Virus record (IMG/VR): IMGVR_UViG_3300031555_003397
Strand: one strand, 5' to 3'
DNA: 64,000 nt
Source of the DNA: a virus
Lineage: Duplodnaviria; Heunggongvirae; Uroviricota; Caudoviricetes
Shown: in pieces, positions 336 to 62,071 of the stretch
Numbering within the stretch: the first letter of the stretch is position 1
Layout: every line of letters starts with the position of its first letter
Notes under the pieces: model-generated
Seen by the model: only the letters and a program-made list of their open reading frames with translations
What the model was told of the DNA's origin: nothing
Databases searched by the model: none
Position numbers and translations under genes: made by a program

Positions 336-1670
336 TCATTTGTTCACCTTCTTTTTCTAGCGGTCATTTCTATCACAGATTTTACAACGAGTTGAGAAGC
401 CATCTTTTGAACGGGATTTTCGGACAAATTTGTCCGGATCAATCAACAAGACCTTTCCGCATCCTGTGCATTTTTTGAAATTCTCTGGAAAACTTAGATT
501 CTCTATAATCTTCGCATGGAACTCAGCTGTTTCATTGATGCGCGGAATTATCTTTTGACGGAAGATGGTGCTAATATAATTAGCCGTGTAGGACTTGTCG
601 TATTTCTTGTTTATAATGTCCGCTATGTCTTGATTTTTTGTTTTGTTGATTTTCAAGTCGAGGATTTCACGCTAGGCTTCAGTTAAGTCGGTCATCTCGA
701 TATAATATTTTAGAGTGTCCAAAAGTTTGCTAAGATTTGAGTTAACGGGCAGGGCGCTGATTGATTCTTCGAGTTCATTGAGTTGGCCGAATAGTTCATA
801 TATGTGCTCAAGATTTCCAAAGTCGAAGAAAATTGCAGGGCGCGATTCGGACTTTTTGGACCAATAGAACTATAAAACTTTTTGTAGGTCTGACTCATTA
901 TAAGTAGAAGGGTTTAAATCTCGTTCTGCTTTGAACAACAGGGCGCCAATTGAGCCAGTTTTAAGTCCCAAGGGAAATACCGGAATTTCTGCATCAAAGT
1001 CGGGGTCGACTGGGTCAATCTCTGGTTCAATAGGAGTATGACGGATATGTTTCTCTATGTAGGTGTCGCGCAATGTGAATTGCTCTCGGCGCAATTCGAC
1101 GATGAGATGGCGCTATTTGAGATATTTGAATTGGTTCCATTTGGAAGCAGTTGTTTCAGCATTGGTGAGTTCCTCTTGTGAAAAACGTTTTAAAAGGGCA
1201 GCACGAGGTGGCTCTTTACGGCGCCCGTGCGAAAATTCGTAGTAGTTGAGCATGAGTTCGATTGTGTCGATTCGTTTGAAGAGGTCTTCGAATACGGGGA
1301 CTAAGTGTGCAGGACATTCACTCAAGGTCTTTTTGCGGTCGAAGACTTCGCGGGCAACACGTGTGCGCGCTTCGGTGGGGCGACGTAAACTGGCCTCAGA
1401 AAATGTGGGAGACTCCATCAGGGCATCAAGGGATTCCGTATCATCTCGTTGCCATGTTTTGTTACGGGTTTCAATCTAAATTTCACCACGCTAGGTCACA
1501 TTTAGACCATCCGGGTCCTTGCCCCATAAAATGTAGTTAGCGATGGTTTCTAATTCGTCACTTGTAAGAGGAGTACGCTAAAACTAAGGTTGCTGTACAT
1601 ATTCATTTACAAAGTCACTGCGCCCATCGGTAGATTGGATTGAAAAATCCAAGTGTAATCGGTTTGCCAT
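336..1670 (-). CDS. Hypothetical protein (~444 aa) with C-terminal CxxC..CxxC zinc ribbon; 8 in-frame TAG read through
   Basis: One frame open from ATG 1670 to TGA 336-338. Track ORFs 1113-1418, 870-1094 and 357-656 share this frame, split only by TAG. Consensus promoter 1741-1773. Confidence 0.5.
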
Positions 1671-1904: not shown

Positions 1905-2402
1905 ATGGAAATTTGGAGAGATATAGAACAATATCCAGGATATTAGGTTTCAAACCAAGGTTAGATAAAAAGTTTTAAGCAATCAAAAGAAGGACGCATT
2001 TTAAAACCCAAGATTAGTGCTGGATATGCTGGAATTGATTTTCGCAAAGATGGAAAAAGCTACTATGGTTTAGTGCATCGTATTGTATTGTCTACTTTCG
2101 CGCCCGTAGAAGGATGGGAAACTTTAACCGTTAATCATATAGATGGTAATTGTTTGAATAATAATTTAGAAAATTTGGAATGGATGACTCAATCTGAAAA
2201 TACTAAATATTCTAGAGAAATTTTAAAAACGGGTAATGCTGCTTAGAAAGTACATATAATTAAATTAAACGGAGAAGAATTATTCTATGATACAGTAACT
2301 GCTGCGGCAAAGGAAATGGGAGTGGCGAAAGGAACGATATCTAGATGGGCCAACAAACAAAGAAGTTATGAAGGCAAATATAAGCTGGTGGAATACGTGT
2401 AA
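1905..2402 (+). CDS. HNH homing endonuclease (HNH_3/AP2-like); 3 in-frame TAG
   Basis: RBS ggagg before ATG 1905. Motifs IEQYPGY*VSNQG*IKS and VNHIDGN..NN..NLEW.T..EN. Stop TAA. Confidence 0.55.
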
Positions 2403-11095: not shown

Positions 11096-11251
11096 ATGAC
11101 TAATAAAAAATATCAAGTTCAAACCTATGTAGACTGCGCAACCAAAGAAAAAATTGACCAACTTTGCGCCAAATATCAAGAAAGTGTTAGTTCAATTATG
11201 CGGCGCGCAATCATCAAATTCTTAGAACAGGAGGACAAAAATAATGCTTGA
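11096..11251 (+). CDS. Ribbon-helix-helix (CopG/Arc-like) DNA-binding protein (51 aa)
   Basis: RBS ggagg. RHH-like motif SVSSIMRRAIIKFL. Confidence 0.45.
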   Translation: MTNKKYQVQTYVDCATKEKIDQLCAKYQESVSSIMRRAIIKFLEQEDKNNA

Positions 11252-11671
11252 TTTTAATAATCATGGAATTAAAAGTGGCATTTACTCCATAAGTATTGAT
11301 GGCAGAGTGGTATATATAGGGTAGAGCGCTGACCTATATGGTCGTGCTCTTTCTCATCGTTATAATATTTTAAATAGCCAAGAATTGTGGTATCCTCTTA
11401 TGAAAAACTTTCTTGAAAGAGGTCACGAAATATCTTTTAATATCATAGAAAGTGTAAATCCTAAAAATCTAAAACAAAAAGAAAGAGATTATATATTTCT
11501 ATACTAGCCTTTATTCAATCAACAACTTTCAACCAATAATCAAAGAATTCCTTGTAATTACCTTGAAGCTATTCAGACTCTAAAATTAAAACAACAACCA
11601 TATTTAGGAATTGAGACAATTCAAAAAGAAGAATTAGCTAAAGCAAAAGGCTGGTTTGGTGAAATTAATTG
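11244..11671 (+). CDS. GIY-YIG homing endonuclease; 2 in-frame TAG
   Basis: GIYSISIDGRVVYIG*SADLYGRALSH. TAG sits where the YIGQS consensus has Gln. Confidence 0.5.
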
Positions 11672-11854
11672 ATTCGGCGCGAACAGCATCAACCGACAGG
11701 ATTTTTGGAAAAATTTTCGGGTTCGCGCCAATTGATACAAAAACTAAATGAAGTCATCATTAGTGACAAGATAACGCTATATCCTTCATCTTTTTCCAGA
11801 AAATCTTTTACTTTATAAGCTGCGCCGCAGTAAACTTTTCCATACAACTCCTCC

Positions 11855-15180: not shown

Positions 15181-15660
15181 TTATTTAGTTACTCCAACTA
15201 TCCAAACGTAAGTAACTCCAGCTTTATACTTACCAGATGATGCGCCCATACTAAATTGAGTAGAAGTTAAATAGGATGTACTATACAAACCTTTCGCGGC
15301 AGTAGTACCGTGAATATACATAACCTAACCAGTGGTTCCAGTTTTAATTCCCAAAGCGGAAACTAAATAGCCAGTGCCAACTGTCTAACCAGGTTTTGCA
15401 TAAATACAATAGAAATCTGGCTCTACTCCTAAATCATGGGTAATCTTAGTAGTTAAACCAGAAGCATCTGCAGTAGGAGTATATTCTCCAGTCTTGTAAA
15501 CAGAAAAAATTTCAGGGCCATCTCCACCCGTGGGTAGATTTAATATAAGATCCGCTGCCTCACCTGATTTTATTAAATCAGTCTAACCATTTTTTGCACG
15601 AATAGCGTCACAAATGTTTTGATAGTCTACGCCAGGCATCATAACCATTTCAGTCAAAGC
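15181..15660 (-). CDS. Structural (virion) protein candidate; 4 in-frame TAG
   Basis: Frame MALTEMVMMPGVDYQN... is open through four TAG codons to TAA 15181. Terminator hairpin 15146-15175. Confidence 0.45.
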
Positions 15661-16316
15661 CATTATGCGCCCACCTCCGCTACATTAGTAAACTAAGCAA
15701 GTTTAGCATCAATTAAACTGTTAATATGAGCATCAGTAGGAATCTCATCAGTCTTAGCATAACCTTCTGGAACAGTAGTTAAATAATTACCTTTTGGCTG
15801 GTAATTTGTTTGCACCCATTGTTCAGTAGCATAACCAGTTAAATCAACACTACCTCCACCACCAGATTCTGGTATATCAACTAATTCAGCAGCCATCTCC
15901 GCAATTTCTGCTTTGTCTGCATCAGTTAAAACATAGTCCTTACCATCGGTTCCATTAGTTCCATCAGTTCCATCTTTACCATCAAATTCGCCGCTTGCCT
16001 TAGCTTGCGCCAAAGCAGTATTTATAGCAGAATCAAGTTCAGTGGTGTCAAGCTTTTCCCCCAAGGCATCACCAACAGCTTTTGCATCTGCGGCTTTGCC
16101 CTATACTGATAAGGTTGTATCCAATTCTATTTGAACGGTGGGAGTTGTATCTATTTTAGATATCTATTCATCTGTATATCTATTAGCTGTAGTTATGGCA
16201 GCATCAATTTCAGTCTAAGTTATAAGAGTGGGCTTATTAGCCAAAGCATTATAATCATATTGCTCTACTCCAGTATCAGTCTAAAAACCTTGGATTGGAT
16301 TTTCAGCCATTATATC
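15650..16316 (-). CDS. Tail-fibre-like protein with collagen-like G-x-x repeat; in-frame TAGs
   Basis: Starts MAENPIQGF*TDTG. Contains DGKDGTDGTNGTDGKD. The track shows only the 15693-16064 fragment. The 3-prime end is approximate. Confidence 0.4.
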
Positions 16317-24597: not shown

Positions 24598-25377
24598 TCA
24601 CCTTACCCTTTCCAGAAGATACTTATCACCCATAATATCTTCCAATGTAATTTTATTTAATTTTGTATAAGGTATACGAACAAGCGGATAACCCTTGTCT
24701 GCACAAAAATCATTCTTTATTTTATCTCTTTCTTGAATAGCTTCTAACGAATCACTATTACTCCACCAAGCTTCTGGTCCAACAAAATGTTGACGTCCAT
24801 CGAATTCAATAAATCTAACTGGATTTTCAAATTTATCATCGTAGATAATAAAATCAAAACGAAGTCTTTTGCCAGTTTCTTTAACCAGTTCTGGCAATGG
24901 GCTATCATAGTAATAATTTATATTATTACTATCTAATATTTGCTATATTTGATATTCGCCAAGTGATGATATGCATTTTCCACAAGACTAGGTCTATCCT
25001 TGTTTCAAAGAATTACCCATTACTTCTTTTGTTTCACCACAATCACATTGACATTTATACCAACGACGATTGTGCCCAGGTATCTACTATTTAAATCCAA
25101 TGTCTTCAACTACAACAAGTTTACCAAAGCGGGTCCCCGGCTAAATTTTGTTATTTTCTGACTACTCATAATTAAAATTAATTAAGCCTATACTTTTTCT
25201 ACAACCACAAGATTTGGTATTACCACTTGTTAAAGAACCAATTGGAATCTTTACGATATTACCACAGCTACACTTACATTCCCATAAATACTAACTACCT
25301 TTTTTCTCTTCTAGACGTCTTAAAGCAGTAAGCCATCCAAAAACTTGATTACTTATATCTTTCGGTTTACCGGCCAT
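24598..25377 (-). CDS. Vsr/DUF559-like PD-(D/E)XK endonuclease with N-terminal Cys clusters; several in-frame TAG (including tandem TAG TAG)
   Basis: C-terminus RFDFIIYDD..RFIEFDGRQHF. Upstream frame MAGKPKDISNQ... is broken only by TAG. The frame join is uncertain. Confidence 0.35.
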
Positions 25378-29240: not shown

Positions 29241-30554
29241 TTAACCAGCCGTTATTTTCCAATCTGATGATGTTTTCATATATGGAATAACCAGTTTCCA
29301 GGGTTTTGTATCTGTGGAACTAGAAGGATAATACATCCATACCATTGCTATTTTATATTTATCAGTGTTATTAATAAATAAACGTACTGAACCATCTGCT
29401 TTCCAAATAGCAATGTAAGTTATATTAGAAGAAATTTCCTGCTCTGTTCCTGCTGCCAACAGACCAGAGGTTTGAGTTTCGGAAGTTCCCCATCCAAGAA
29501 ATTTATAACCTACGCGAGTAGGAGTAGGTAGAGTTATTTTACCTTTAACATCATTGTGAGTCCAATATGCATATACAGTTGTTGCCGATTCATAATACGC
29601 TGCAGCATTTGCACTTGAAGCAGAGGCAGAGGTAGCCCAACCACCAAAAGTCCATTTTCTTGTAGTTTTTACAACTTCAGAAGAAGTAGATACTATTCCT
29701 CCGTTAGCATTAAACTAAACAGTATACTATAATGATGCTGGATAAGTAGGGTCTTTAATTGGCTTTGTTAAATTAGAAATATAATTATTAGTATAAGTAT
29801 AGGAATTTTTAGATGTATATATAGGATACAAGGCTATATCATAACTAGGCATTATATAACTTCCACCAGGATTATAAGTAGTACCATTACCATTAGCGCT
29901 TGTATTCCAAGAGCTAAAAGTATAATTAGTTTGTCCACTTTTTATAGCAGTAATCGAAGTAGTAGTTGTATTTTTATTACCAAAATAACCGCCATTACCA
30001 TTACCAGTAATAATAAAATTAGAATCTGCTAAAAGAGTACTACTTTTAGAAGGGCCAGAAGATAAAACAGTAAAAGAACTTCCTGCAGTATATTGATAAT
30101 AAGCATAATAACTTCCATCTGGCTTATAGTAATCAACCCAGTACAATGGATTATATGGCGTTAAACCAGAAGCCGAAGTAAAGGTGACTCTAATACTTCT
30201 AGCACCAGCGCTAGCAGAAGAACCTCCAACATCAATATAATAGCTAGTTCCTAAGGTTGCAGTACCAGAGGTATTTGTACTTACAGTTACTTCAAAAGTA
30301 CAAAAAATTCTCTCAGTACCATCTAAGGTATTACTAATGCCGCTACTAAAATTATCAAGATAAGAACTACCTCTACAATAAGGTGAATTTAGACCATAGT
30401 TAGAATCAATACGTCTTCCCTTTACTGTAACAGATAAAGTTCTTGAAGAACCATAGCTTCCAGTTTCAGAAACAGTTACAGAGGTAATACCAATAACGTT
30501 TTTACCTTTTCCCGCAGCGTCGGTAGATGCTATGCTATAATTTAAAGAGGCCAT
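29241..30554 (-). CDS. Tail-fibre / receptor-binding-like protein (S/T/G/N/Y-rich); in-frame TAGs
   Basis: Track fragments 29727-30554 and 29241-29459 join through TAG codons. Stop TAA at 29241. Confidence 0.45.
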
Positions 30555-31029
30555 TCAATCACCCCGTAACAACAAAATAAAGCTAGCCAACTGTACCAGT
30601 AATTCCAGCATCATTAGGGTTAGTATTGCCATAACTACTATCATCAACTACAATTGCACCATTAGCAGTTAATAATCCAGAAATTGTGACTGCTTTACTA
30701 AAAGTAGTTGCTCCGCTTACTGTTCCGCCAGAAGAAGCAAAAGCGCCAATATCACTACGAATTTGAGCTGGGGTTCTTGAATAAACTACATTATTATCAT
30801 CAGCCACTAAAATTTTGGATTGTTTAGCTGTGGCCGCTGGTATCGTAGGAATAACTAAATAATTAGAAGAATTTACTAAACCACTTGCTGCCAATCCAGT
30901 TAATTGCTAAATAATTCCATCATTATTTATATAGAGCGCGCCATCTTTAACATAACCAAGTTCAAAAGGAGCTAAATTTGAAGTTGTCGGTACGCTACTA
31001 CCATGTTTAATCTAAATTGTATTTGCCAT
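30551..31029 (-). CDS. Tail-fibre-associated protein; 3 in-frame TAG
   Basis: RBS ggaggtaaaaa, then ATG. Frame MANTI*IKHG... is open to TGA at about 30551. Confidence 0.4.
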
Positions 31030-33611: not shown

Positions 33612-35184
33612 ATTAGTAAGCATAATTACCAATATTTAACCCCTTCATTGTTGTTTTAATAGTGATACCATTACCAATTAAGTGATTAAAAACGCTTGTA
33701 TTTTTCGCAGTCGGCGCCCAAGCATGGCCCAACCATTTCCAAAATTCATTTGGTCCTCTAGATGGACCTTCATCCCAATGAATTCCAGAATTGCATATAA
33801 TTTTAGTTTCAATATTTTCAATGCATCCTTGATAGAAGGCTAATATTCTTGAACCTGGAACAAAATATTGCTAACTAATATTATAAAAACAAACTGTATC
33901 ACTAATATCGGCTATAGCAGTTCTAAGTAGCTCTGCTGTATATTCTTTTTCTAATACATCTTCTAGGTCGTAAATAGTACCAAAGTAATGTTTGTTGATA
34001 TCAGCATTGAAGAAGAAGTTAGCAAGAAATCCAGTAAAAGATTGTGAATCACCAAAATACTGCGCGACTTCGTTGGGATGCTGTTTTACTTCAATATTAC
34101 TTCGTGTGAAAGCACCATTGGGGCCTGCGTTGACAGAATAGTTTTTAACCTATATACCAAAAGCATCAAATATCTAAACGTCTTGTTTGCCCAGATTCTG
34201 ACCAACAACTTCCGCTATTGATTCATCTAGACGCCCGCCGGTTTTCAAGTAAAGATAATTAATTAATAAAGCCGTACCAAATTCACCAAATGCACCTAAT
34301 AAACCATTTCTAACATTACTACCTATAAAAAACAGATTATATCCAGAGGATAAAACCGAATCCAAAGTTGTGTCTAAGGCCTAATTAAATTCAGCGCTAC
34401 CAGAGCCACCAAAATATTGCTTTAATTCTGTGCGTATATCTCTAATTGCTTGGTCTAATTCTGCTTTAGTCTAAGTTGGATTTTCAGCCATACCCTTTTT
34501 AATATCGGCCATTGTATAGCCCCAAGGATAGGGACGGTATTTAATTATCTAAGATAATTCACTAGTTGTAACTCGATTACCTCCAAGCTCTATAGTAATC
34601 ATTTTATCTAGCTCTGTATCAGAATATAGAAAAGAAGCAAGTGCTTCAGTATTAAAAGAAGATAAATGATAATTTTTTTTCATTAGCCTATTTACCATTC
34701 TTTTAAGACTATTAACATTTCCTTTTACAGTTATGCCTAAGTCTACCGGCTATCTAAAAGCGGCGCTTAAAGCTTTTGAAATCTTGTCCATTTCGCTTTG
34801 CGCTTGATTGGTATTGATTTTAATATTTAAATCAAACTCATTCATATCTCGAGTTCCAGTCTTACCACCTATTAGCTTACTAATAAACTTAGATACATTT
34901 TCATTTGACGCTCGTCTTAAAAGTTTTCCATCATCAGAATTCATCATCATCCGTAATAAATCCATAAACTCTTCATATGAGTTACATCCAAATTTTTTAT
35001 AAAAAGCCAGCTCTTTTGCTTCCAAAGCATCTATTCCACCAGAAATAGAGTTTAATTCTTTCATTGCATCTTTGGCGTTTTTAAGAAAAGCATTAAAGCG
35101 GAAATAATGGTAATTGGTATGTAAAGTAGTATTTCCATAAGAAGCTTGATATAATTCACCCATGGTTCTATATTCATTACTCAT
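33612..35184 (-). CDS. Large structural protein candidate (~520 aa); about 9 in-frame TAG
   Basis: The 34750-35184 ORF runs through a TAG at 34750 into one frame interrupted only by TAG. The 3-prime end is approximate. Confidence 0.4.
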
Positions 35185-42975: not shown

Positions 42976-43160
42976 ATAATCAAGTCTAGACCCATAAGAA
43001 CTGTAACAATAATGGAAGGCTCCAGTGAACGTTGTTTGTTCTCCTTATCGAACACCTTCAACACCAAATAGGCATACAAGTAAAAGTTGTATCAATTTTC
43101 CTCTATCAGAAAAATTTGCTGTAAACGGGTCTATGTTAAGAAAGGAGGGCTTTCGCCCTG

Positions 43161-43233
43161 GTTGCCAGACTTGGACTCGAACCAAGAAAGCCGACTTCAG
43201 AGGACGGTGTTTTAACCAATTAGACTATCCGGC
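43161..43233 (-). tRNA. tRNA-Gln(CTG) candidate
   Basis: Loop CTCTGAA. The anticodon stem has one mismatch. T-arm CTTGG-TTCGAGT-CCAAG. Confidence 0.45.
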
Positions 43234-43303
43234 AATATAAAGAAGGCCGTTTCATATAACAGTAGCGGCTAAACCTACTGCGACAAACGGCCTTGGGCCG
43301 TGG

Positions 43304-43375
43304 CTGGGGATTAGAGATTTGAACTCCAACTTTAGGCTTCAAAGGCCCGATTGCTACCATTACAACAATCCCCAA
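43304..43375 (-). tRNA. tRNA-Gln(TTG)
   Basis: U1-A72, G73, loop CTTTGAA. Confidence 0.55.
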
Positions 43376-44233: not shown

Positions 44234-45247
44234 ATAAAAGAGTTTAACCTTTATCCACTCTAAAGGTACTCGCATTAAGACTCATCGAGCTTACCTGTTC
44301 TATTTATATACCGCTCCCAGCGTAAACGGTTGTTGCTCCATCCTTTAACTATTCAGACTTCATAGCAACTATTTAACTCAATAAAATCGTACGGACCTTC
44401 GCCCTACCAACTGTTTAACCTTCGCTCATATTCGACCAGTGAGGAGACACGGTCTGAGCCATAGGTAGCGACCCTATGACTTCCGGCCCCAGAAGCCTTC
44501 CAGCTTCCCTGGCACCTCCACGTAGTGACCCACTCAATGTGGGATAAGCGCTTGATGCTTCTAAATCTCACGTAGGAATGATTACCTACAACTTTCACCC
44601 GCCATTCAGAAATATCTTTTGCAATTTGATTCTATTACAAAACTATAATCATCCAAGCATTATTGTTATTTGCGATTGGGCTACTCGTACCACAACCTTG
44701 TCTTATATCCGGATTACTCCGTCATCAACGCAAACTTCCTTATTGGTGTACCTTGGTCTGGAACAGTCACCAACTAATCCCTAACAAGGCTTATTCCCCC
44801 ACAGGGGCGTCTATTGCGGAAGCGACAAGACAGTGTCTTTGAACGCGATTATGTCAGCACACCCCTCCATCCAAGACCTCAGTTCTGAGGCGGAACTCAT
44901 ATCTCACGATACAAGCCCTCTACCTAGTGTTGGCTATCGTCAACACGCTTGCATTTCGGACTCCTGGCGCCCACGGGCAGGATTGGGTTCTCGGCACGAT
45001 GGTATTCGCTCTGCACCGAGTTGTACAAATTTTATCAAGTTGCATGATGATTCAGTCGAAAGCGTCCTCGCCATTCCTATTCGGATGCGGGCATCATCAT
45101 GAGGACTTATAAAACAAAGGCTTAGGTTTCGCTAGGAGAACTATTCCGCACGGAACTCGCTCCTTCCCTATCCGGGAACCACCCTTGAAGCAGCATCTCT
45201 AGGCTTCTTCCTTTGTTATGTTTTAATTACAAGACGCGAAATTTGTG

Positions 45248-45321
45248 TCCTAAAACCGGACTCGAACCGGTGATTGCTCTCTTGGAAGGAAAGTGTTTAA
45301 ACCATCTAAACTATTCAGGAA
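45248..45321 (-). tRNA. tRNA-Gly(TCC) copy 1
   Basis: Loop CTTCCAA, D-stem GTTT/AAAC. Confidence 0.55.
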
Positions 45322-45588: not shown

Positions 45589-46002
45589 TTAAACTATATC
45601 GCCATTAAAACAAAACAAAATCTTTATACCACTTTTGATTTGATTTTGGAGTTTCGCCATAATAAATTATCATGCTACCCTTCGCCGCCTTATCAATTGG
45701 AACAAAAATAATATGTTCAAATTCTGGATTAACGACAGCAAAATAATCAATTAAACCAATATAATTATGGTTAGTTATTTCATTGTAATTTTTAGAAGTG
45801 CTTCTAGTATTAAATACCCAAGTATCTTGAGAAGTACCCCTATAAGCAGTTTTTACCTAAATTCTAAGCAAATTACCATTGTAATCAACAACAAAATCAT
45901 ATGGTAAATTATTACCTATTGGTTTACAAACTGGTATATCTTTTACCAGACAATGAATAATAAATTTCTATTCAGAAATATCCCCAATTTGAGTTTTATT
46001 CA
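45589..46002 (-). CDS. PD-(D/E)XK-family putative homing endonuclease (paralog 3); 2 in-frame TAG
   Basis: RBS ggagg, then ATG 46002. LLRI*VKT aligns with LLRIQVKT and LYRVQVKS in its paralogs. Stop TAA. Confidence 0.5.
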
Positions 46003-46100
46003 TTATAATAGCCTCCTATGCTATTTATTATAAATGCTCGCTTGGATAGGAGCCATTACTCAATAAGGAGCTACCTCATTGCTACCGAGCAAATATCTGG

Positions 46101-46601: not shown

Positions 46602-47009
46602 TTATTTGCTAAGAACCTCCTTAGCAATATAATCTTTGGCAAAACAAATGTTTTTAATTTGCCCATTTTTTGTTGGGACTAATCTCAAAGATTTTTCTCT
46701 GGACCCACATTCTGCTATAGGAATTAAATAACATTCATCATTAAACCAAGTACAAAAATAATCAATTTCTGACTGATAAGAACGACGATTTGCGCCATCT
46801 CTTGTAATGTGCGAAGAGCAAGTTTCAAAAGAAATTTTTTCTCCATCGCTCTTTGAAGTTTTTACTTGAATTCTTAATAATTTACCCTCATAATCAAGGA
46901 TAAAATCATACCGTGCAGGACTTTCTGGAGTAGAAACCATGTATCCCAACTCTAAAAAATAAGTCTTGCATTTTAACTCTGTTATTGTTCCTCTTAAATT
47001 ACTATCCAT
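46602..47009 (-). CDS. PD-(D/E)XK-family putative homing endonuclease (paralog 2)
   Basis: YDFILDYEGKLLRIQVKTS. Confidence 0.45.
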   Translation of the reverse strand: MDSNLRGTITELKCKTYFLELGYMVSTPESPARYDFILDYEGKLLRIQVKTSKSDGEKISFETCSSHITRDGANRRSYQSEIDYFCTWFNDECYLIPIAECGSREKSLRLVPTKNGQIKNICFAKDYIAKEVLSK

Positions 47010-47425: not shown

Positions 47426-47797
47426 TAGAGTTACTCCTTTCAAGGTTTTTATTAACTAGACGGATAAAAAGATACGTTTATAAACCCCAATTATATGTTG
47501 TCTTTAAAGATATAGTTGCTGTGTCCGTCTAAATAAGCCTTACGCTTCATTGTATAAATATTATACTTTAAAATTGAGCAAAAATCAAATTTTTTAACTC
47601 AATGATGTATCAATCTCTACATCTACGCATAAGCGTGACCGCATCATTTGAGTGAAGGAACGACAGAATCCATTAACTGTTGACCACTTTGAAATGATTG
47701 ATACATCATTCAATTAAAAATGGGGTCTTGGTGTGGGTGGGTAGCACCACACATTTCCCAGCCAGCAGGCGTTTTCTTCTTAAACTACAAGACCTGG

Positions 47798-47883
47798 CAC
47801 GGGTGGTTGGGATTCGAACCCACGTGGTGCTTACGCACACGAGTTTTGGAGACTCGCGCCATCGACCGCTAGGCGACACCCGC
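47798..47883 (-). tRNA. Unusual tRNA with Trp anticodon CCA but type-II body (long variable arm, G73)
   Basis: Anticodon stem CGAGT/ACTCG is perfect, loop CTCCAAA. Variable-arm hairpin GTGCGTAAGCAC. Length 86 nt. Confidence 0.5.
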
Positions 47884-47886: not shown

Positions 47887-48630
47887 TTAAATTTTATTCC
47901 ATTCTTCATCAGAATAAAGTTTGATTTCTTTGATTTTTGAGGGCAATTTTTCTGCTATGCACCATTTACGAATTGCATTATCAGATACCCCAAACTTTTT
48001 ACCAATTGTGGTAAAAGGAGTGCTTCTGATAAGATTTTTTAATTCCTCTCGTGAAGGTCTTCTGCTTCGATTTGTTTTATTTACACATTCTACAGAACAA
48101 TATTTATCTTGAGAAGGCTTTAATTTTTTACCACAGCAAAAACAAAACCGTTCTTTTTTACGAAGCGGATAAGTATAATCTTCTTGTATACGTGTTTTTC
48201 CAGTATTTATTTCACTAATTGTATCAATACCAACATTATACCTTTCAGCAATTTTACCTAAAGATATATCAGTATTTATAAGCAAATCATAAATTTCAAC
48301 CAATGATTCTGTAGAAATTTTTACGCAACAATTTGAAGTACCCGCCCCACCAATTGTTTGATTATATCCATTATTGTAACTATCATATAACGCAATATAA
48401 TACTTTTCTAAACTATTTAGTTCGGTATGAGAACATTCCACAAGAACTTCAAAGTCAAAATTATCTATTCCATATTCTCTAATTGCAATATATAATGGAG
48501 CATTATAACTTTGCTCTTTAGCCATTTGACGATGAGCGCGCCATCTGCGAGAAATATCAATAGACTGCCCTATATAACATTGCCCTGTAATTTTATTTGT
48601 AATTTTATAAATTCCAACCATTCTTATCAC
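47887..48630 (-). CDS. GIY-YIG homing endonuclease with C-terminal zinc finger / NUMOD-like region
   Basis: GIYKITNKITGQCYIGQS. Confidence 0.6.
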   Translation of the reverse strand: MIRMVGIYKITNKITGQCYIGQSIDISRRWRAHRQMAKEQSYNAPLYIAIREYGIDNFDFEVLVECSHTELNSLEKYYIALYDSYNNGYNQTIGGAGTSNCCVKISTESLVEIYDLLINTDISLGKIAERYNVGIDTISEINTGKTRIQEDYTYPLRKKERFCFCCGKKLKPSQDKYCSVECVNKTNRSRRPSREELKNLIRSTPFTTIGKKFGVSDNAIRKWCIAEKLPSKIKEIKLYSDEEWNKI

Positions 48631-49449: not shown

Positions 49450-50170
49450 CATAGATTCCATTTTGCGTTCGTTTTTCAATACCCTCAACGCCTAGACGCT
49501 CTATGATAGATTTTCACTATCCATTGTCATGTGCTTAGTTCTATCGAGTTGGTCTGCGTTGCCACTCCTTGCCAACCACGCCAAGGCCGTTTTACTGCCA
49601 AAAACTTCATCTATGTGTTTACCCTTCACCAGACCGCATTTCAACCGAGCAAGGCAGTAAGACCATTGTGCGGCAGTGGCTCCAGAAACTTTAAAAACTC
49701 TTATCGGTGTCCTATTATATAAATTCCACTCTTACTAGCGCCAGCTCTTTCACTACTGGGCGCGGGTCGCCTTATTACTTTCGGCGCCGTCTTGACCAGC
49801 AAGCTCTTCTCGTCTTGCAGGACTGCTTTCTCTGATTTTCGGGTGGAGGATATTCGAAGCTACCCTCAAGCTCACTCATTTCACCCTAGGCACTTTCAAG
49901 GTATGCCTTACGTCGCGGCTTGGGCATCTTGCCGCAGTTCAATTTTCTTTCAGCGGAATTATCAAACCATTCCGCCTAATTGGTCTGTGGATATGAACCA
50001 ATAACCCTAAATAGACTCCACAAACGCACTCAAACCAATCGAATACGTTGCTTCACGGTCGCCTCGGTCTATCTTGTAGCCGACGCACCCAAGTATTTCT
50101 CACTTGGTAAGAGCCGTGCTTTATCATCCACGGCGATGGTTGGTTTAAATTACGAACCTTTTAAAGCCAA
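49450..50170 (-). ncRNA. Large structured noncoding RNA (~700 nt) with RNase-P-RNA-like sequence blocks
   Basis: No ORF. The minus strand has CCTTGAAAGTGCC, AGGGTGAAATGAGTG and CTCCACCCG in the same order as the J11/12-P12 region of bacterial RNase P RNA. The P4 helix was not identified. Confidence 0.25.
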
Positions 50171-50699: not shown

Positions 50700-50858
50700 T
50701 AAAAATTCCTCCTCTTTGTTTCTAAATATAAGTAGAATTACAAAGAAAATAGTACAATTTTCCAGTCCAAATTTCAGTCTAAAAATTTAACTAGACGCAA
50801 TATAAGTTTGACAATTTAGCAGATTGTTCCTTGAAAAGTTTGCTGTGTGCGTCTGTGG

Positions 50859-50930
50859 CGGGGGCGGTGAGAATCGAACTCACATCTGCGGTTTTAGAGA
50901 CCGCGGTCCTGGCCTTTGAACGACACCCCA
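50859..50930 (-). tRNA. Amber suppressor tRNA, anticodon CUA, Gln-like identity (tRNA-Sup/Gln(CTA))
   Basis: Perfect anticodon stem GCGGT/ACCGC, loop CTCTAAA (plus-strand TTTAGAG at 50893-50899). U1/C72 unpaired, G2-C71, G3-C70, G10, G73, CCA encoded. Confidence 0.65.
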
Positions 50931-50994
50931 ATATGGGGTGCTACCTATATAACCCTTGGTTCTCGGGTGAACTCGTGTAGCGGTTACTTTATGG

Positions 50995-51654: not shown

Positions 51655-51700
51655 GTATAAATATTATATCAAAAATTTAAGAATTTTTCAAATTTTCAAG
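51655..51700 (-). promoter_or_regulatory. Conserved promoter copy
   Basis: Same motif. Confidence 0.45.
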
Positions 51701-51964
51701 GGTGAAAGGCTCTCACATCTGCATTACCAGACTTATCCCAGGCTTGCGGGCCCAGCAAGGTGTTCCTGCGGACGCTGGGGTTAATGTTACTATTTAAAGG
51801 GGCGAGCTGTACCCTTACCATTCACTAGAGCCAAAAGGTTGGCCACCACATTCGGCCGACCGTTCCTCTCCGCTCACCTTGTATATATATTATATATTAA
51901 ATTTTTAAAAAAGTCAAAAAATAAAGGAGCAATTCTTTGCGAACTGCTCCTATAACATTTACAC

Positions 51965-52430
51965 TTAGACATTGGGAATTTTCAGAATCATACCGGCGCG
52001 CAGAATATCAGACTTTAACTTGTTAAACTCTTTGATTTCTACGTACCGATTACCATTACCTACTCCGTAATAGTGTTCTGCTATATCCCACAGAGATTCC
52101 CTCTTCTTTACTTTGTGCAAAGTAATGTCACTTGTAGATGTAGTAATTACAGAAGAAACTTCTGGCTGTTCTTCACCAACAATACTCATACCTGTCACAA
52201 AAATTTCTGGTATCTCCGTAGTTTCCTTGTGTTCATGCGGAACAGTAAACTTTAAGTTAATCCAAGAACCATTTTCCAATTGGCCCCAACCATTTTGCTC
52301 AGCAACAACATTATGAACTTCATCCATCTTAATTGTGCCTAGAATTTGGGCAGACATAGATGGCTATAAGCGACAATTCAATAATTTAGCTGTCACTTTA
52401 ACTTGATTAGCAAATCCCATTGTAAATCCT
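51965..52430 (-). CDS. LysM-domain protein; in-frame TAG near the N-terminus
   Basis: C-terminal LysM (HKVKKRESLWDIAEHYYG...ILKIPNV). Upstream region is in frame through a TAG. Confidence 0.4.
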
Positions 52431-53608: not shown

Positions 53609-53844
53609 AAATCTCCGTAATTATCTACTCCTCGGAAACACTTTACTGCTTCCTTAAAGTCGGGAATATCCTTCATATTAAAGGTAATAATCTCTTCAGA
53701 TACCACAGGAGTCCATTTTGTATCAACATATTTACGCACAGTAGAAGCAGAAAAACCTGTCTGGCGCGCGACCTCTGCAAATACTCGAGTCTTATAGTAA
53801 ATTTCATTCATACGAAGAATATCTTCACTTGTTACTCTAGCCAT
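53545..53844 (-). CDS. Helix-turn-helix DNA-binding protein
   Basis: ARQTGFSASTVRKYV. Confidence 0.4.
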   Translation of the reverse strand: MARVTSEDILRMNEIYYKTRVFAEVARQTGFSASTVRKYVDTKWTPVVSEEIITFNMKDIPDFKEAVKCFRGVDNYGDLCVLSEQEKEEIKELWKELAV

Positions 53845-54386
53845 TTTATTCCCTCCGCCGCTTTAATAGTTTCTTTGACAACTTCAAACCACACAGGAGT
53901 ATAATTAATTCGCTCTGCGCTTACGCAAAAGCTACGGCAACTAAAATCTTTATAAGTGGGGTCATTATGAACGTGTGCAAAAATATTTGCAAAAGGAGAG
54001 TTTTCAGAAATACCCACCAATGGTGCATGAGACACAATAAAAAAATCATCAAGCACAATATGATGATTATACACAAACTCAAAACCAGCAGCCCTATAAG
54101 TTTCAATAGAAGCCTGGTCATGATTTCCCAAAACAAGACGCTTACGTCCATTCAGGCGCTGACCAATCTCAATAATTTTTTGTTTACCGCACAGCGCAAA
54201 GTCACCAACTACATAAACAATATCATTCTTGCCAACGACAGAATTCCAATTTTTAATAAGTTGCTTATTCATATCTTCTACGCTATTAAAGGGGCGACTA
54301 CAATATTTGATAATGTTTCGATGATTGAAGTGCAAGTCGCCAATAAGAAAAATCTTAGGTTCTTTCATTAAATCATTCCTTTTCAT
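53832..54386 (-). CDS. Metallophosphoesterase
   Basis: GDLHFNH...GDF...GNHD. Confidence 0.55.
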   Translation of the reverse strand: MKRNDLMKEPKIFLIGDLHFNHRNIIKYCSRPFNSVEDMNKQLIKNWNSVVGKNDIVYVVGDFALCGKQKIIEIGQRLNGRKRLVLGNHDQASIETYRAAGFEFVYNHHIVLDDFFIVSHAPLVGISENSPFANIFAHVHNDPTYKDFSCRSFCVSAERINYTPVWFEVVKETIKAAEGIKWLE

Positions 54387-54437
54387 TTTCTTATATTATA
54401 TCACAAATTTTCATAAAAATCAAAAATTGGGAGAGAA

Positions 54438-55262
54438 TTACTCCTCTCCCTTGTATTTCCATTTGTAACCATATGCTGTCTTTCTTTCGCCCCTAGCGCA
54501 TCTATTTATTGGAGTACCACTGCTTACTCCTAACTCTCTCGCGGCAGCCTCGCAACTTGGAAATTCTGCCAAAAAATTATTATTTAAATCAAACTACGTA
54601 ACTTTTTTGCCAGTAGTTTTCCTCTCTTTAGTTAATAGATAATCTTCTATTGGCGTTTCATCTTCTACATATTTCCAAATATAACCACTGCTACTTTTTA
54701 ATTTACCGTTACAACAGGCAATAATATTAGAGCCATTTGTCTGCCCTGTAGCCCTACCTGCTTCCGAAGCAGATTCAAAAATTTGTATAAAATCGCCTTC
54801 TTTTGAAAACTAAATCACTGGTTTGGCGTGTATTCTATTATGAATTTCTTTGTGACTAACAGAATTTGCGCGTAATATATTTTGAATTGTTCCATCGCTA
54901 GCGCCAGTAATTTTACTCAACTCCTATGGAGTTTTCCCATCAAGCCACAACTAATACACTTCATCGTAGTTATACTTGGTCGCACCTTCTCCGCCTAATG
55001 TAGAATTATATCCATTGTGGTAAGAATCATAATAAGCAATCCAAAATTTTTCTCTTTCAAAACGATTAGCAAAATCACATTCTTCAATTTGTTTAATCTG
55101 AAAATGTTCTATCCCGTACTTTCGCATTGCTAATTGTAATTTAAAATTTCTTTTATAAAGATCTTGAATATGTTTAATCCAGCGATGTTCTATCCCGATT
55201 GCCGTTTCACCAACATAAACTTTGTCATTTATATCATTTATAATTTTATATATAAAAGCCAT
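54438..55262 (-). CDS. GIY-YIG homing endonuclease with NUMOD-like C-terminal repeats; about 4 in-frame TAG
   Basis: FIYKIINDINDKVYVGET..RWIKH. Reads through the TAG at 54951 to TAA at 54438. Confidence 0.5.
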
Positions 55263-55270
55263 TAAAATGC

Positions 55271-55314
55271 CTCCGGTCTTTCTTTCTACTTATAAGTAGA
55301 AAGAAAGACCGGAG
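55271..55314. repeat. Perfect 44-bp palindrome between the Ro60 gene and a GIY-YIG gene
   Basis: ctccggtctttctttctacttataagtagaaagaaagaccggag. Contains ACTTATAAGTAG. Confidence 0.8.
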
Positions 55315-55337
55315 AGTATATTATTTAAGTAAAATTT

Positions 55338-56906: not shown

Positions 56907-56964
56907 TTGAGTTAATCAACCTCAGTTATTGTCGATTATTTTAGTTTCGCTGTTCGCGCCTCAA

Positions 56965-57010: not shown

Positions 57011-57047
57011 CTCAATCATAAAATTTCTGGCTAGAATTTTGAACTTG

Positions 57048-57429: not shown

Positions 57430-58125
57430 TCAAATTTTATAAGCCCACAAATAACCACCAGAAGTTTTTTGTTTACCAAGACAGCAATTATATATTCCAG
57501 TTTTACTAATTCCTACACTATCTGCGGCAGTTTTTACATTATCATATTCAGCAATTAAATTACCTTTCATATCATACTAGAATACCTTCTTATTATTTTT
57601 TCTAGCAATCTCTATTGTTTTTTCTTCTTTTTTAAGACCTTGTTGCCATTCCCATTTAAAGCCGCCACTACTTTTTGTATTTCCATTACAGCATTTGCGT
57701 ATATTAGATGGATGAATTCTCACTTCATCTGCGGCTTCCTATACAGTGTTAAAAATCTTTAAAAACTATCCTTCTAAAGTATATTGTATTACTGCAGCTC
57801 CATGATTTATTTTTTCTTTAATTTTTTCTTGACCGCCAATAGTGGAATTATACCCATTATTGTAACTATCATAATAGTTTATCCAATATTTTTCCTTAAT
57901 ATCCAATTCTGAATTTTGACATTCTTCTAAAATTTCCGGAGTAAAATTATTTTCACCATATTTAATTATCATTCTATGAAATAAAGGAAAGCTTTGTCTA
58001 ATACCATCAAGAGCTTCTCTAGCTTCTTTTTTATGCTACTCCCATCTTTGGTTTAAAGTTTTGGAAGTCTATCCAATATAAACTTGATTAGTTACTTTAT
58101 TTGTTATTTTATATATAATACCCAT
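57430..58125 (-). CDS. GIY-YIG homing endonuclease; several in-frame TAG
   Basis: MGIIYKITNKVTNQVYIG*TSKTLNQRWE*H. Stop TGA at 57430. Confidence 0.45.
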
Positions 58126-61237: not shown

Positions 61238-62071
61238 GTGGGTTTTATTTATAAAATAACAAACAAAATAAATAACAAGATTTATATTGGATAGACCTGC
61301 CGAGATTTATAGACTAGATGGTGTGAACATAAAAGCAGGGCAAATTGTGAATATAATAATTATTTATATAATGCAATAGCAAAATATGGCGCAGAAAATT
61401 TTACTATAGAACAAATAGAAGAAATTAAGACTGATCTTCTTGATGAAAGAGAAATTTATTGGATTGCTTTTTACGATTCAAATAATCCCAAAATAGGATA
61501 TAATTTAACAATTGGAGGACAAGGTAAAAAGAATTATCGTACTGATAAAATTAGAGAATTGTGGGATTCTGGAAAAAGTATTGGAGAAATAACTGAAATT
61601 TTATAGTGTGATAAGGGCACAGTGCGCGAATCTTTACTAAGCCATGAAACTTATTCAATTCATGAAAGTCTTTCGCGCAGAAAAACCCAGCGAAAAGGAG
61701 TAAATAAATATTCATTAGATGGTATATTTATACAACATTATAATTCAATTTTAGAAGCAGCTAATTATGATAAAAATATAGCTAGCGGGATAGGTGGATG
61801 CTGTAACAAAAGACACGCTTAGGCTTACGGTTTTCAATGGCGCTTTGAAGATGATGAACCGCCTCAAGCATTAAATAATATTAAATTTGGTAAAAGAACA
61901 ATATAGTAGATAAGCCTTGATAATATAGAGCTATAGATATTTCAATCTGCTGCCGAAGCTGCACGTCAAGTTGCTCCCGGACGCAATGTAAATTCAGCGA
62001 GTAGTCAAATCATTCAAGTATGTAAGGGGAAGAGACAAACTGCTTATGGATATAAATGGCAATATAAATAA
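61238..62071 (+). CDS. GIY-YIG homing endonuclease; about 7 in-frame TAG (including tandem TAG TAG)
   Basis: GTG start. GFIYKITNKINNKIYIG*T.RDL*TRW.EH. Confidence 0.45.

What the first reader, a model, noticed from the sequence alone, without database searches (positions are those of the whole stretch)
50859..50930. Amber suppressor tRNA(CUA) with glutaminyl identity features
This is a canonical 72-nt cloverleaf on the minus strand with a perfect anticodon stem GCGGT/ACCGC and loop CUCUAAA, giving anticodon CUA that reads UAG. It has an unpaired U1/C72, G2-C71, G3-C70, G10, U35 and discriminator G73, which are the features I recall as determinants for E. coli GlnRS (as in supE-type tRNAs). 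CCA is encoded. Two other Gln-type tRNAs, UUG at 43304-43375 and a CUG candidate at 43161-43233, are in the same array.
Basis: partly seen in the sequence, partly recalled or inferred. Interest (0 to 1): 0.85.

Follow-up and report, generated by a model that had tools for sequence, protein, structure and literature searches.

The report
Phage amber-suppressor tRNA reading TAG as glutamine
This is a real, conserved phage tRNA that reads the stop codon TAG as glutamine, letting a large, probably rumen, phage translate about a fifth of its genes that carry in-frame TAGs; this kind of recoding is already known in gut phages.

Summary
ARAGORN and Rfam both call a 75-nt tRNA with anticodon CUA at 50856-50930 (-). 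It folds as a clean cloverleaf whose only unpaired stem position is U1/C72.

The window is part of a large phage with 36 tRNAs. The tRNA is in use: 19 of about 92 predicted genes carry 65 in-frame TAGs. No predicted gene has to end in TAG.

At conserved positions the TAGs align with CAA/CAG glutamine in homologues that have no TAG. Examples are FGI-Q-VKNY, V-x-Q-Y-D and YIGQT.

TAGs are concentrated in homing-endonuclease and tail-fibre-like genes. They are absent from the RNA-repair, NAD-salvage and nucleotide genes.

Related contigs carry the same tRNA in the same array position. Their stems covary, yet the U1:pyrimidine-72 mismatch and G73 persist. In this data set U1 plus G73 occurs only in tRNA-Gln and in these suppressors.

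What it missed is that the phage uses genetic code 15 (TAG = Gln), a known phenomenon. The verdict is a new member of a known kind.

The recurrent 1:72 mismatch is a modest possible novelty. How the tRNA is charged (GlnRS, or GluRS plus GatCAB) and which host it infects are unresolved.

The parts
50856..50930 (-). Suppressor tRNA(CUA), 75 nt including the encoded CCA. U1 = 50930, C72 = 50860, G73 = 50859.
   Evidence: ARAGORN; Rfam tRNA 49.1 bits; cloverleaf is the minimum-energy fold; parsed arms; covariation with relatives.
50895..50897 (-). Anticodon CUA (reads UAG) in the loop CUCUAAA.
   Evidence: Sequence; ARAGORN places the anticodon at position 34.
51889..51917 (-). Sigma-70-like promoter match (TTGACT-17-TATAAT, 11 of 12), upstream of the first tRNAs of the array (Leu-UAA, Asn, then the suppressor).
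   Evidence: Consensus scan only; function is inferred.
51663..51691 (-). Second sigma-70-like promoter match (TTGAAA-17-TATAAT with an extended -10 TG, 11 of 12).
   Evidence: Consensus scan only; function is inferred.
50934..50940 (-). 5' leader heptamer CACCCCA, exactly complementary to acceptor bases 1-7 (UGGGGUG), 3 nt upstream of the tRNA.
   Evidence: It is the only one of the 36 tRNAs with a complement of 6 nt or more in its 20-nt leader. L002's leader is partly complementary. Role unknown.
50791..50852 (-). Conserved structured element 3 nt after the CCA: outer stem AGACGCA/UGCGUCU, single-stranded ACAGCAA, and an inner 5-bp hairpin with the 7-nt loop CUGCUAA.
   Evidence: Orthologous copies follow the suppressor in L002, L004 and L005. 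RNAalifold gives 15 pairs, 5 of them compensatory. No Rfam match. Role unknown.
33613..35184 (-). 523-aa conserved protein of unknown function with 7 in-frame TAGs. One TAG sits at the invariant Gln of the FGI-Q-VKNY motif.
   Evidence: The TAG-free homologues P0143 and P0141 have CAA at that column.
57430..58125 (-). GIY-YIG/NUMOD1 homing endonuclease with 5 in-frame TAGs (YIGqT, RWEqH, VFqYD and two others).
   Evidence: Pfam domains lie on both sides of the TAGs; standard-code homologues.
54438..55262 (-). GIY-YIG/NUMOD1 homing endonuclease with 4 in-frame TAGs.
   Evidence: The same TAGs are conserved in L002 at 98% amino-acid identity.
61238..62071 (+). GIY-YIG homing endonuclease with 7 in-frame TAGs.
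24598..25377 (-). Homing endonuclease (matches PHROG families annotated HNH endonuclease, homing endonuclease and intron-encoded nuclease; Pfam DUF2726) with 8 in-frame TAGs.
1905..2402 (+). HNH homing endonuclease with 3 in-frame TAGs.
11244..11672 (+). GIY-YIG-like endonuclease with 2 in-frame TAGs (YIGqS).
336..1670 (-). 444-aa protein with a sigma-factor-like C-terminus (phrog_5767) and 8 in-frame TAGs.
15181..16310 (-). Two adjacent tail-fibre-like genes (one with a collagen-like G-x-x stretch), carrying 3 and 5 in-frame TAGs.
   Evidence: They have no family match, so the function is inferred from composition.
29241..31029 (-). Two adjacent surface or fibre-like genes (one with a Listeria-Bacteroides repeat), carrying 2 and 3 in-frame TAGs.
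51965..52420 (-). Lysis-related protein with 1 in-frame TAG; it matches the C-terminal parts of phage amidase and endolysin families.
   Evidence: The TAG is conserved in L002.
43301..43374 (-). Sense tRNA-Gln(UUG): U1-A72, G73.
43159..43234 (-). Sense tRNA-Gln(CUG): U1-A72, A73, with weaker stems.

Best explanation
This is a functional, phage-encoded elongator tRNA with anticodon CUA. It inserts glutamine at UAG in a phage whose genes are written in genetic code 15 (TAG = Gln; only TAA and TGA terminate).

Shown:
- The gene is a canonical tRNA under selection.
- In-frame TAGs sit in real genes.
- Those TAGs occupy glutamine positions.
- TAG use is strongly partitioned between gene classes.

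Inferred mechanism:
- The tRNA is the third gene of a 36-tRNA array that lies behind two sigma-70-like promoter matches, so host RNA polymerase probably makes it early.
- After processing it is charged by the host's glutamine system. Its acceptor end (U1, an open 1:72 position, G2-C71, G3-C70, G73), G10, C34, U35 and A37 fit a tRNA-Gln.
- The open U1/C72 position probably compensates for the lost G36 contact. GlnRS has to melt this pair anyway (established knowledge of the E. coli GlnRS-tRNA-Gln complex).
- The charged tRNA then outcompetes release factor 1 at UAG. This allows full-length synthesis of TAG-containing homing endonucleases, fibre-like proteins, a lysis-related protein and a sigma-like protein.
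- TAG-free genes for RNA repair, NAD salvage and nucleotide metabolism can be translated before the suppressor accumulates.

This is the published model for recoded phages applied to this genome. The timing has not been tested here.
For: - tRNA calls and fold.
- Conservation: the suppressor sits between Leu/Asn/Tyr and Phe tRNAs in L002, L004 and L005. In the alignment, 96.3% of cells are paired, 16 of 21 pairs show double changes and 0 of 500 shuffles reach this; position 1:72 is unpaired in 8 of 13 sequences.
- Identity: U1 plus G73 occurs only in tRNA-Gln and in CUA suppressors.
- Usage: 65 in-frame TAGs in 14,403 codons, spread over 19 of 92 genes; predicted terminators are TAA in 50 genes and TGA in 42. 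Pfam domains lie on both sides of TAGs.
- TAG = Gln, homing endonucleases: seven standard-code homologues give Q at 28 of 88 aligned residues, against a 3.7% background; the next most frequent are K (7) and E (6). Three of these homologues were confirmed TAG-free; T4 MobB and the cultured Bacillus and Synechococcus phage records come.
- TAG = Gln, 523-aa protein: at the invariant FGI-Q-VKNY column the window has TAG and the TAG-free homologues have CAA.
- Partition: 15.5 TAG per 1000 codons in 10 endonuclease genes, 13.4 in fibre-like genes, and 0 of 3,013 codons in RNA-repair, NAD-salvage and nucleotide genes. About 13.6 would be expected there if TAG use were uniform (my arithmetic).
- Control: contigs with a Glu-type CUA tRNA show E, not Q, at their TAG columns.
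- Literature: code-15 phages with suppressor tRNAs. The closest database tRNA is the Sup-CTA of phage phAss-1, a member of NCBI's 'Caudoviricetes code 15 clade'.
Against: - There are no aminoacylation or proteomic data for this phage.
- Two E. coli GlnRS identity elements in the anticodon loop are absent (G36, U38).
- The D arm and the 4-nt variable loop resemble tRNA-Glu (recalled from memory, not tested). The D loop also has one base more than the sense tRNA-Gln(UUG).
- The host is unknown and may lack GlnRS, in which case charging would need ND-GluRS plus GatCAB. GatCAB is reported to read a U1-A72 pair, not a mismatch.
- Many variable TAG columns align with K, E or N in homologues.
- No RF2, RF1 antagonist or aminoacyl-tRNA synthetase was found in the 64-kb window, so how RF1 is beaten is open.
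- Four genes have a TAG within their last ~10 codons, which could act as a leaky terminator.
- The early/late timing is inferred from gene classes only.
Confidence: 0.85

Rival explanations
1. The tRNA suppresses UAG but inserts another amino acid, such as Glu (glutamylated by GluRS but not transamidated), Lys or Trp.
For: - The D arm and the 4-nt variable loop look Glu-like (the E. coli comparison is from memory).
- Many variable TAG columns align with K or E in homologues.
- Other phages appear to carry Glu-type CUA suppressors, so non-Gln amber decoding probably exists.
- CUA tRNAs are classically prone to mischarging by LysRS and GlnRS (established knowledge).
Against: - At conserved columns the TAG-free homologues have Gln, not Glu or Lys: FGI-Q-VKNY, V-x-Q-Y-D and YIGQT.
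- Q is enriched about 8.6-fold over background, whereas K and E are not enriched.
- The acceptor end (U1, G73) matches only tRNA-Gln in this data set.
- The Glu-type suppressors have G1, A73 and a different body.
Confidence: 0.07
2. The tRNA is a partial, regulatory read-through device. On this view TAG is still mainly a terminator, and only a fraction of ribosomes read through, giving two protein forms.
For: - No RF2 or anti-RF1 function was found in the window.
- Four genes carry a TAG within about 10 codons of the end.
- Host RF1 should still be present (inference).
Against: - Genes carry up to 8 TAGs spread along essential domains. One example is between the GIY-YIG and NUMOD domains, and another is inside the catalytic YIGQT motif. 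Low-efficiency read-through would give almost no full-length product.
- None of the 73 TAG-free genes ends in TAG.
Confidence: 0.05
3. The tRNA serves mainly as a counter-defence decoy or spare tRNA, for instance against anticodon nucleases. On this view something else decodes the in-frame TAGs.
For: The window is rich in RNA-repair genes (RlaP, HAD_SAK_2, a kinase, phosphoesterases, a ligase) and in tRNAs.
Against: - It is the only CUA tRNA in the window.
- It co-occurs with in-frame TAGs here, in its relatives and in phAss-1.
- Published surveys link CUA tRNAs to TAG recoding.
Confidence: 0.02
4. It is a pyrrolysine tRNA, as ARAGORN's label suggests.
For: Only the CUA anticodon and the program's default label.
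Against: - It has G18G19, a UUCGAUU T loop, a 5-bp anticodon stem, two bases between the acceptor and D stems, and a 4-nt variable loop. By established knowledge, tRNA-Pyl lacks these canonical features.
- No pyl genes were found among the proteins scanned.
- TAG columns are Gln.
Confidence: 0.005

Closest known systems
Suppressor tRNA(CUA) of TAG-to-Gln (genetic code 15) recoded phages: crAss-like, Lak and the 'gemstone' clades of Borges et al., and phAss-1/Phassvirus
   Same: - It has a CUA anticodon and is phage-encoded within a tRNA array.
- In-frame TAGs lie in structural, lysis-type and mobile genes but not in a block of standard-code-compatible genes.
- TAG positions correspond to Gln, and no dedicated aminoacyl-tRNA synthetase is nearby.
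- The class I Sup-CTA of phAss-1 is 76% identical and also has U1/C72, G73 and CCA.
   Different: - The phage lineage is different: there is no near match in 50,697 phage records. The closest relatives are uncultured contigs, one of them from cattle rumen.
- It has only one suppressor, whereas phAss-1 has two or three, including a long-arm one.
- Nearly half of the TAGs lie in homing-endonuclease genes.
E. coli supE-type amber suppressor (a tRNA-Gln(CUG) isoacceptor mutated to anticodon CUA)
   Same: It is a Gln-type acceptor end joined to a CUA anticodon, and it inserts Gln at UAG.
   Different: - It is not a one-base mutant of a resident tRNA-Gln (65% identity to the UUG species; below the 60.5% cut-off of the top-12 list for the CUG species).
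- The 1:72 position is a U/C mismatch instead of U-A.
- The D loop has 8 nt and the variable loop 4 nt.
- It is an obligatory part of the phage's code rather than a leaky laboratory suppressor.
Classical GlnRS mischarging substrates with a weak or open 1:72 pair: su+3 tRNA-Tyr mutants, su+7 tRNA-Trp(CUA) and tRNA-fMet(CUA) (recalled from the literature, not checked here)
   Same: A CUA anticodon (U35) together with an unpaired or weak first base pair and G73 favours glutaminylation.
   Different: Those are laboratory mutants of E. coli tRNAs. Here the open 1:72 position is naturally conserved across divergent phage suppressors. Its effect on charging is untested.
Bacterial initiator tRNA (1:72 mismatch)
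   Same: The first acceptor position is unpaired.
   Different: - The anticodon is CUA, not CAU.
- Position 11:24 is U-A, not A-U.
- Only two of the three consecutive G-C pairs in the anticodon stem are present.
- It is used at internal codons.

Membership tests
Canonical bacterial-type elongator tRNA | Cloverleaf with a 7-position acceptor stem, 4-bp D stem, G18G19, 5-bp anticodon stem, 7-nt loop with U33, and a T loop of the UUCRAnY type | tested here: met
   All stems are fully paired except 1:72. The D loop is AAAGGCCA and the T loop UUCGAUU.
Canonical bacterial-type elongator tRNA | Structure maintained by compensatory changes in homologues | tested here: met
   96.3% of cells paired, 16 of 21 pairs with changes on both sides, 0 of 500 shuffles as high. 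The anticodon arm was fixed by the search pattern for 10 of the 13 sequences, so it is uninformative.
Suppressor tRNA of a TAG-to-Gln (code 15) phage | Anticodon CUA | tested here: met
Suppressor tRNA of a TAG-to-Gln (code 15) phage | In-frame TAG codons in bona fide phage genes | tested here: met
   65 TAGs in 19 of 92 genes. Pfam and PHROG domains span the TAGs. The 523-codon ORF has no TAA or TGA but 7 TAGs.
Suppressor tRNA of a TAG-to-Gln (code 15) phage | TAG positions correspond to Gln in homologues that do not use TAG | tested here: met
   Q at 28 of 88 residues against a 3.7% background; CAA at the invariant column.
Suppressor tRNA of a TAG-to-Gln (code 15) phage | TAG not used as a terminator | tested here: inconclusive
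   All 92 predicted genes end in TAA or TGA, but that is by construction of a code-15 gene call. The independent observation is that none of the 73 TAG-free genes ends in TAG. Four genes have a TAG near their end. Only 64 kb of the genome was seen.
Suppressor tRNA of a TAG-to-Gln (code 15) phage | Gln physically incorporated at TAG (proteomics or aminoacylation) | not testable with these tools
   Shown for crAss-like phages in the literature (abstract of PMC9523058, listed), not for this phage.
Substrate of E. coli-type GlnRS (tRNA-Gln identity set, from established literature) | Acceptor end: U1 with a weak or open 1:72 pair, G2-C71, G3-C70, G73 | tested here: met
   Position 1:72 is a U/C mismatch rather than U-A.
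Substrate of E. coli-type GlnRS (tRNA-Gln identity set, from established literature) | G10 | tested here: met
   (G10-C25).
Substrate of E. coli-type GlnRS (tRNA-Gln identity set, from established literature) | Anticodon loop: C/U34, U35, G36, A37, U38 | tested here: not met
   C34, U35 and A37 are present. Position 36 is A, as any amber suppressor requires, and position 38 is A. The match is therefore partial.
Substrate of E. coli-type GlnRS (tRNA-Gln identity set, from established literature) | Host encodes a GlnRS | not testable with these tools
   The host was not identified. The genome-collection scan for the anticodon arm was uninformative.
Substrate of the indirect pathway (ND-GluRS plus GatCAB) | U1-A72 pair and a tRNA-Gln-type D loop without the extra base | tested here: inconclusive
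   U1 is present but faces C72. The D loop has 8 nt, against 7 in the phage tRNA-Gln(UUG). The effect of the mismatch is unknown.
supE-type point mutant of a resident tRNA-Gln | Same body as a sense tRNA-Gln of the same genome, differing essentially in the anticodon | tested here: not met
   65% identity to Gln(UUG); the CUG species falls below the 60.5% cut-off of the top-12 list.
tRNA-Pyl | Atypical body: small D loop without GG, 6-bp anticodon stem, 3-nt variable loop, one base between the acceptor and D stems | tested here: not met
   One search shows the canonical features instead.

The most novel reading that the evidence does not exclude
The unpaired U1:pyrimidine-72 position is not an accident of this gene. 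It looks like a selected, recurrent signature of phage Gln-type amber suppressors. It is seen here, in three relatives, in the phAss-1 group and in two further lineages, and in none of the 8 distinct sense tRNA-Gln sequences examined.

Its proposed role is identity tuning. A pre-melted first base pair would let the host glutamine-charging enzyme accept a tRNA that has lost G36. If so, it would be the molecular trick by which phages capture the host's Gln system for code 15.

The conserved leader complement and the 3' stem-loop element flanking the gene might additionally time its maturation.
Probability: 0.35. Interest if true: 0.55.

Novelty: new member of a known kind. Interest (0 to 1): 0.38.

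Why it matters
- Annotation: this genome must be annotated with translation table 15. Under table 11, 19 of about 92 genes are truncated or split, including every GIY-YIG endonuclease but one and the fibre-like genes.
- Biology: it adds a large, tRNA-rich, probably rumen-associated phage lineage to the TAG-to-Gln recoded phages. It also shows an unusually sharp split: no TAG in 3,013 codons of RNA-repair, NAD-salvage and nucleotide genes, against 13-15 per 1000 codons in endonuclease and fibre-like genes. This fits the idea that recoding gates late or risky genes.
- Possible new rule: the naturally conserved open 1:72 position offers a testable rule for how a host glutamine-charging enzyme accepts a CUA tRNA. 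It could also inform the design of efficient Gln amber suppressors.
- By-product: the comparison turned up contigs that may read TAG as glutamate. I did not find this reported for phages.

Tried and rejected
- BLAST of the tRNA against complete E. coli genomes gave no match. Against phage records it hit only phAss-1's Sup-CTA plus short chance-like matches to Val and Trp tRNAs. It could not assign an isotype.
- Global identity to the other 35 window tRNAs and to 362 tRNAs of all loci does not separate isotypes. The best non-suppressor hits are Ser, Trp and Leu.
- Orthologue codon substitutions gave too few events. All 8 window TAGs are also TAG in the close relatives. The 9 reverse events (E5, K2, I, D) come from the distant contigs L026 and L027, which carry other suppressor types.
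- Alignment of database homologues looked decisive: Q was the majority residue at three of the five TAG columns and in over 90% of homologues at one. It is circular, because those proteins had been called with TAG = Q. I replaced it with homologues verified to translate under table 11 and with cultured standard-code phages.
- Host inference from a genome-collection scan for the 17-nt anticodon arm failed. The 53 hits are about what chance gives in 596 Gb (my estimate is roughly 70). Only 18 of them are CUA tRNAs, mostly long-arm types in soil MAGs, and none has the U1:pyrimidine-72 type.
- A search for RF2, RF1 or an aminoacyl-tRNA synthetase among the larger ORFs of the window found none.
- Rfam gave no match for the element downstream of the tRNA, and the drum RNA nearby is unrelated to it.
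- A first regular expression for the NUMOD module was mis-specified and returned nothing; it was corrected.

Full report
**1. The observation**

ARAGORN finds 36 tRNA genes, all on the minus strand between 35.3 and 51.2 kb. One of them, at 50856-50930, has anticodon CTA. Rfam's tRNA model matches the same place at 49.1 bits.

Read from the sequence, the gene is a textbook cloverleaf:
- acceptor UGGGGUG/CGCCCCC
- D arm GUUC-AAAGGCCA-GGAC
- anticodon arm GCGGU-CUCUAAA-ACCGC
- a 4-nt variable loop
- T arm GUGAG-UUCGAUU-CUCAC
- G73 and an encoded CCA

Every stem position pairs except U1/C72. The minimum-energy fold is exactly this structure. ARAGORN's 'Pyl' label is only its default name for CUA, because the body has none of the tRNA-Pyl peculiarities.

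**2. The tRNA is used: the genome is TAG-recoded**

Allowing TAG as a sense codon raises the bases covered by open frames of at least 100 codons from 40.3 to 52.9 kb. That figure alone is weak in an AT-rich genome, since recoding TAA raises coverage even more.

The decisive evidence comes from individual genes. A 523-codon frame (33613-35184) has 7 TAGs but no TAA or TGA. Three GIY-YIG/NUMOD homing endonucleases have 4, 5 and 7 TAGs, with Pfam domains on both sides of them.

A simple gene call with TAA and TGA as the only stops gives 92 genes. Nineteen of them contain 65 in-frame TAGs in 14,403 codons, compared with 199 CAA and 191 CAG. Predicted terminators are TAA in 50 genes and TGA in 42.

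TAG use is sharply partitioned:
- 10 endonuclease genes: 15.5 per 1000 codons
- four fibre-like genes: 13.4 per 1000 codons
- 12 RNA-repair, NAD-salvage and nucleotide-metabolism genes: none in 3,013 codons

About 13.6 TAGs would be expected in the last group if use were uniform (my arithmetic).

**3. Which amino acid**

A first alignment of database homologues showed Q as the majority residue at three of the five TAG columns of the endonuclease. This was circular, because those proteins do not translate under table 11. Their callers had already read TAG as Q.

Non-circular evidence came from two sources.

(a) Standard-code relatives of the endonucleases. These were T4 MobB, Bacillus phage C30-3, a Synechococcus phage, and three metagenomic homologues confirmed TAG-free. 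At the 16 TAG positions of the three endonucleases, Q accounts for 28 of 88 aligned residues, against a 3.7% background. K (7) and E (6) are at background level. The recurring module V-x-Q-Y-D..G has CAA in 7 copies and TAG in 6.

(b) The 523-aa protein. Column FGI-Q-VKNY is Q in all 23 homologues. The window and two recoded homologues have TAG there, and the two TAG-free homologues have CAA.

A built-in control supports the method. Contigs with a Glu-type CUA tRNA give E, not Q, at their TAG columns. I conclude that TAG is read as Gln in this phage, by strong inference without proteomic proof.

**4. The tRNA's identity and conservation**

Relatives were found through the neighbouring 504-aa DUF2828 protein. 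They carry a CUA tRNA at the same array position, between Leu/Asn or Tyr and Phe tRNAs.

An exact search for the anticodon arm found 51 viral contigs, and 48 of them have a CUA tRNA call at the match.

Thirteen class I suppressors of the same architecture were aligned. In that alignment, 96.3% of cells pair and 16 of 21 pairs show compensatory changes. Position 1:72 is unpaired in 8 of the 13 sequences, while acceptor pairs 2-7 are always paired.

The mismatch is U:C or U:U with G73 in the window, L002, L004, L005, phAss-1/L010, L053 and L008, even though their acceptor stems differ. Among all tRNAs in these loci that encode CCA, U1 plus G73 occurs only in tRNA-Gln (always U-A) and in CUA suppressors.

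The tRNA is not a recent point mutant of the phage's own tRNA-Gln genes.

**5. Mechanism**

Shown: a selected tRNA(CUA), TAG in real genes, Gln at those sites, and partitioned TAG use.

Inferred:
- Transcription starts from two sigma-70-like promoter matches just upstream of the array, and the suppressor is the array's third gene.
- The host's glutamine system charges the tRNA.
- The charged tRNA competes with RF1.
- Delayed availability of the suppressor gates the TAG-containing genes, which is the model of Borges et al..

If the host has GlnRS, the open 1:72 position with G73, G2-C71, G3-C70, G10 and U35 fits the E. coli identity set. It could offset the missing G36 (established knowledge; not tested here).

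If the host uses ND-GluRS plus GatCAB, U1 is right but the partner base is not, because GatCAB is described as reading U1-A72 against G1-C72. The outcome on that route is open.

No RF2, RF1 antagonist or aminoacyl-tRNA synthetase is encoded in the window.

**6. Comparison with what is known**

TAG-to-Gln recoding with phage-encoded CUA suppressors is established for crAss-like phages, Lak phages and several other clades. NCBI even has a 'Caudoviricetes code 15 clade'. Its member phAss-1 carries the closest database tRNA, at 76% identity with the same U1/C72, G73 and CCA.

The phage itself has no near relative among 50,697 phage records. One relative, L059, comes from a cattle rumen assembly; the IMG/VR relatives have no recorded source.

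The verdict is a new member of a known kind. The systematic 1:72 mismatch did not turn up in the papers I searched. It is the only element that might be new, and its function is untested.

**7. Things seen in passing**

- The same array contains ROOL, GOLLD and drum RNAs.
- A repeated stem-enclosed element with the motif ACAGCAA follows the suppressor and elsewhere encloses two odd tRNA-like genes.
- One tRNA(CCA) has a long variable arm.
- A set of contigs has a tRNA-Glu-derived CUA suppressor whose TAGs sit at Glu positions, which suggests a possible TAG-to-Glu phage code.

Noticed in passing
L027:11387-11461, L027:7325-11053, L027:4159-4665; also L128:5556-5630, L131:5532-5605, L134:2625-2698: Four large viral contigs carry a CUA suppressor that looks like a tRNA-Glu(CUC) with C36 changed to A. 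It has G1:U72, A73, and a D arm matching that of the window's tRNA-Glu(CUC). In L027 a tail-fibre ORF has 12 tandem repeats with the motif H-A-E-G. Ten have GAA or GAG at the E position and two have TAG there. The DUF5662 motif DIIEMLCDW has TAG at the E position in L027 and L128. In a crude tally of well-flanked TAG columns, E accounts for 10 of 38 and Q for 2 of 38, whereas in the Gln-type loci Q accounts for 54 of 125. This may be a TAG-to-Glu phage code, which the recoding papers I read do not report.
   Followed up: partly
window 44373-45044 (-), 39822-40333 (-), 49935-50061 (-): ROOL RNA (296 bits), GOLLD RNA (153 bits) and drum RNA (46 bits) all lie inside the same phage tRNA array, on the tRNA strand. 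Having both large ornate RNAs in one phage genome segment is notable.
   Followed up: no
window, minus strand: 50852-50791, 45341-45230, 43760-43649, 42745-42633, 47528-47456, 38018-37889; orthologues at L002:17559-17628, L004:4940-5012, L005:12700-12768: A repeated structured element has the form AGRCGC(A)-nn-ACAGCAA-[insert]-(U)GCGYCU-AG. Its outer stem covaries between copies. The insert is either a small anticodon-arm-like hairpin (the copy right after the suppressor, conserved in three relatives with 5 compensatory pairs) or a whole odd, AT-rich, CCA-less tRNA-like gene ('Gly-tcc' 45247-45320 and 'Thr-tgt' 43663-43734). The motif occurs 19 times against 3.9 expected. There is no Rfam match, and the function is unknown.
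   Followed up: partly
window 50934-50940 (-): The suppressor's 5' leader contains an exact 7-nt complement (CACCCCA) of acceptor bases 1-7, 3 nt upstream. This could compete with acceptor-stem formation in the precursor. It is the only one of the 36 tRNAs with such a complement. L002's homologous leader is partly complementary, with one covarying position.
   Followed up: partly
window 47795-47883 (-); L005:14988-15072: A tRNA with the Trp anticodon CCA, G73 and a long, class II-like variable arm (89 nt; 85 nt in L005). A long arm is unusual for tRNA-Trp. phAss-1 and related contigs have a long-arm CUA suppressor with A1-U72 and G73 next to the Gln-type one.
   Followed up: no
window 1905-2402, 11244-11672, 24598-25377, 35844-36278, 45605-46003, 46602-47009, 47887-48621, 54438-55262, 57430-58125, 61238-62071: The 64-kb window holds at least ten endonuclease genes of GIY-YIG, HNH and PD-(D/E)XK types, several of them inside the tRNA array. 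Seven of them contain 31 of the 65 in-frame TAGs, so selfish genes are among the most heavily recoded.
   Followed up: partly
window 16391-29177 and 53832-61185: TAG-free gene sets cover RNA repair (RlaP, HAD_SAK_2, an AAA_33 kinase, two metallophosphoesterases, an RNA/DNA ligase and the DUF2828/DUF7788 'RNA-binding' protein) and NAD salvage (NMN adenylyltransferase, PnuC, isochorismatase/nicotinamidase). An RNase H is also present.
   Followed up: partly
window about 53.8 kb compared with L002: There is a mosaic boundary. Proteins at 54.4-56.9 kb are 98% identical to L002, but those from 53.8 kb towards the tRNA array drop to about 70-76%. The two suppressor tRNAs are only 77% identical, so the tRNA array appears to have been exchanged between lineages.
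   Followed up: no
L064-L116 (genome collection): Long-arm CUA tRNAs with an A73-CCA end, which resemble tRNA-Leu, occur in several Acidobacteriota and Vicinamibacterales MAG contigs that share the same anticodon arm.
   Followed up: no
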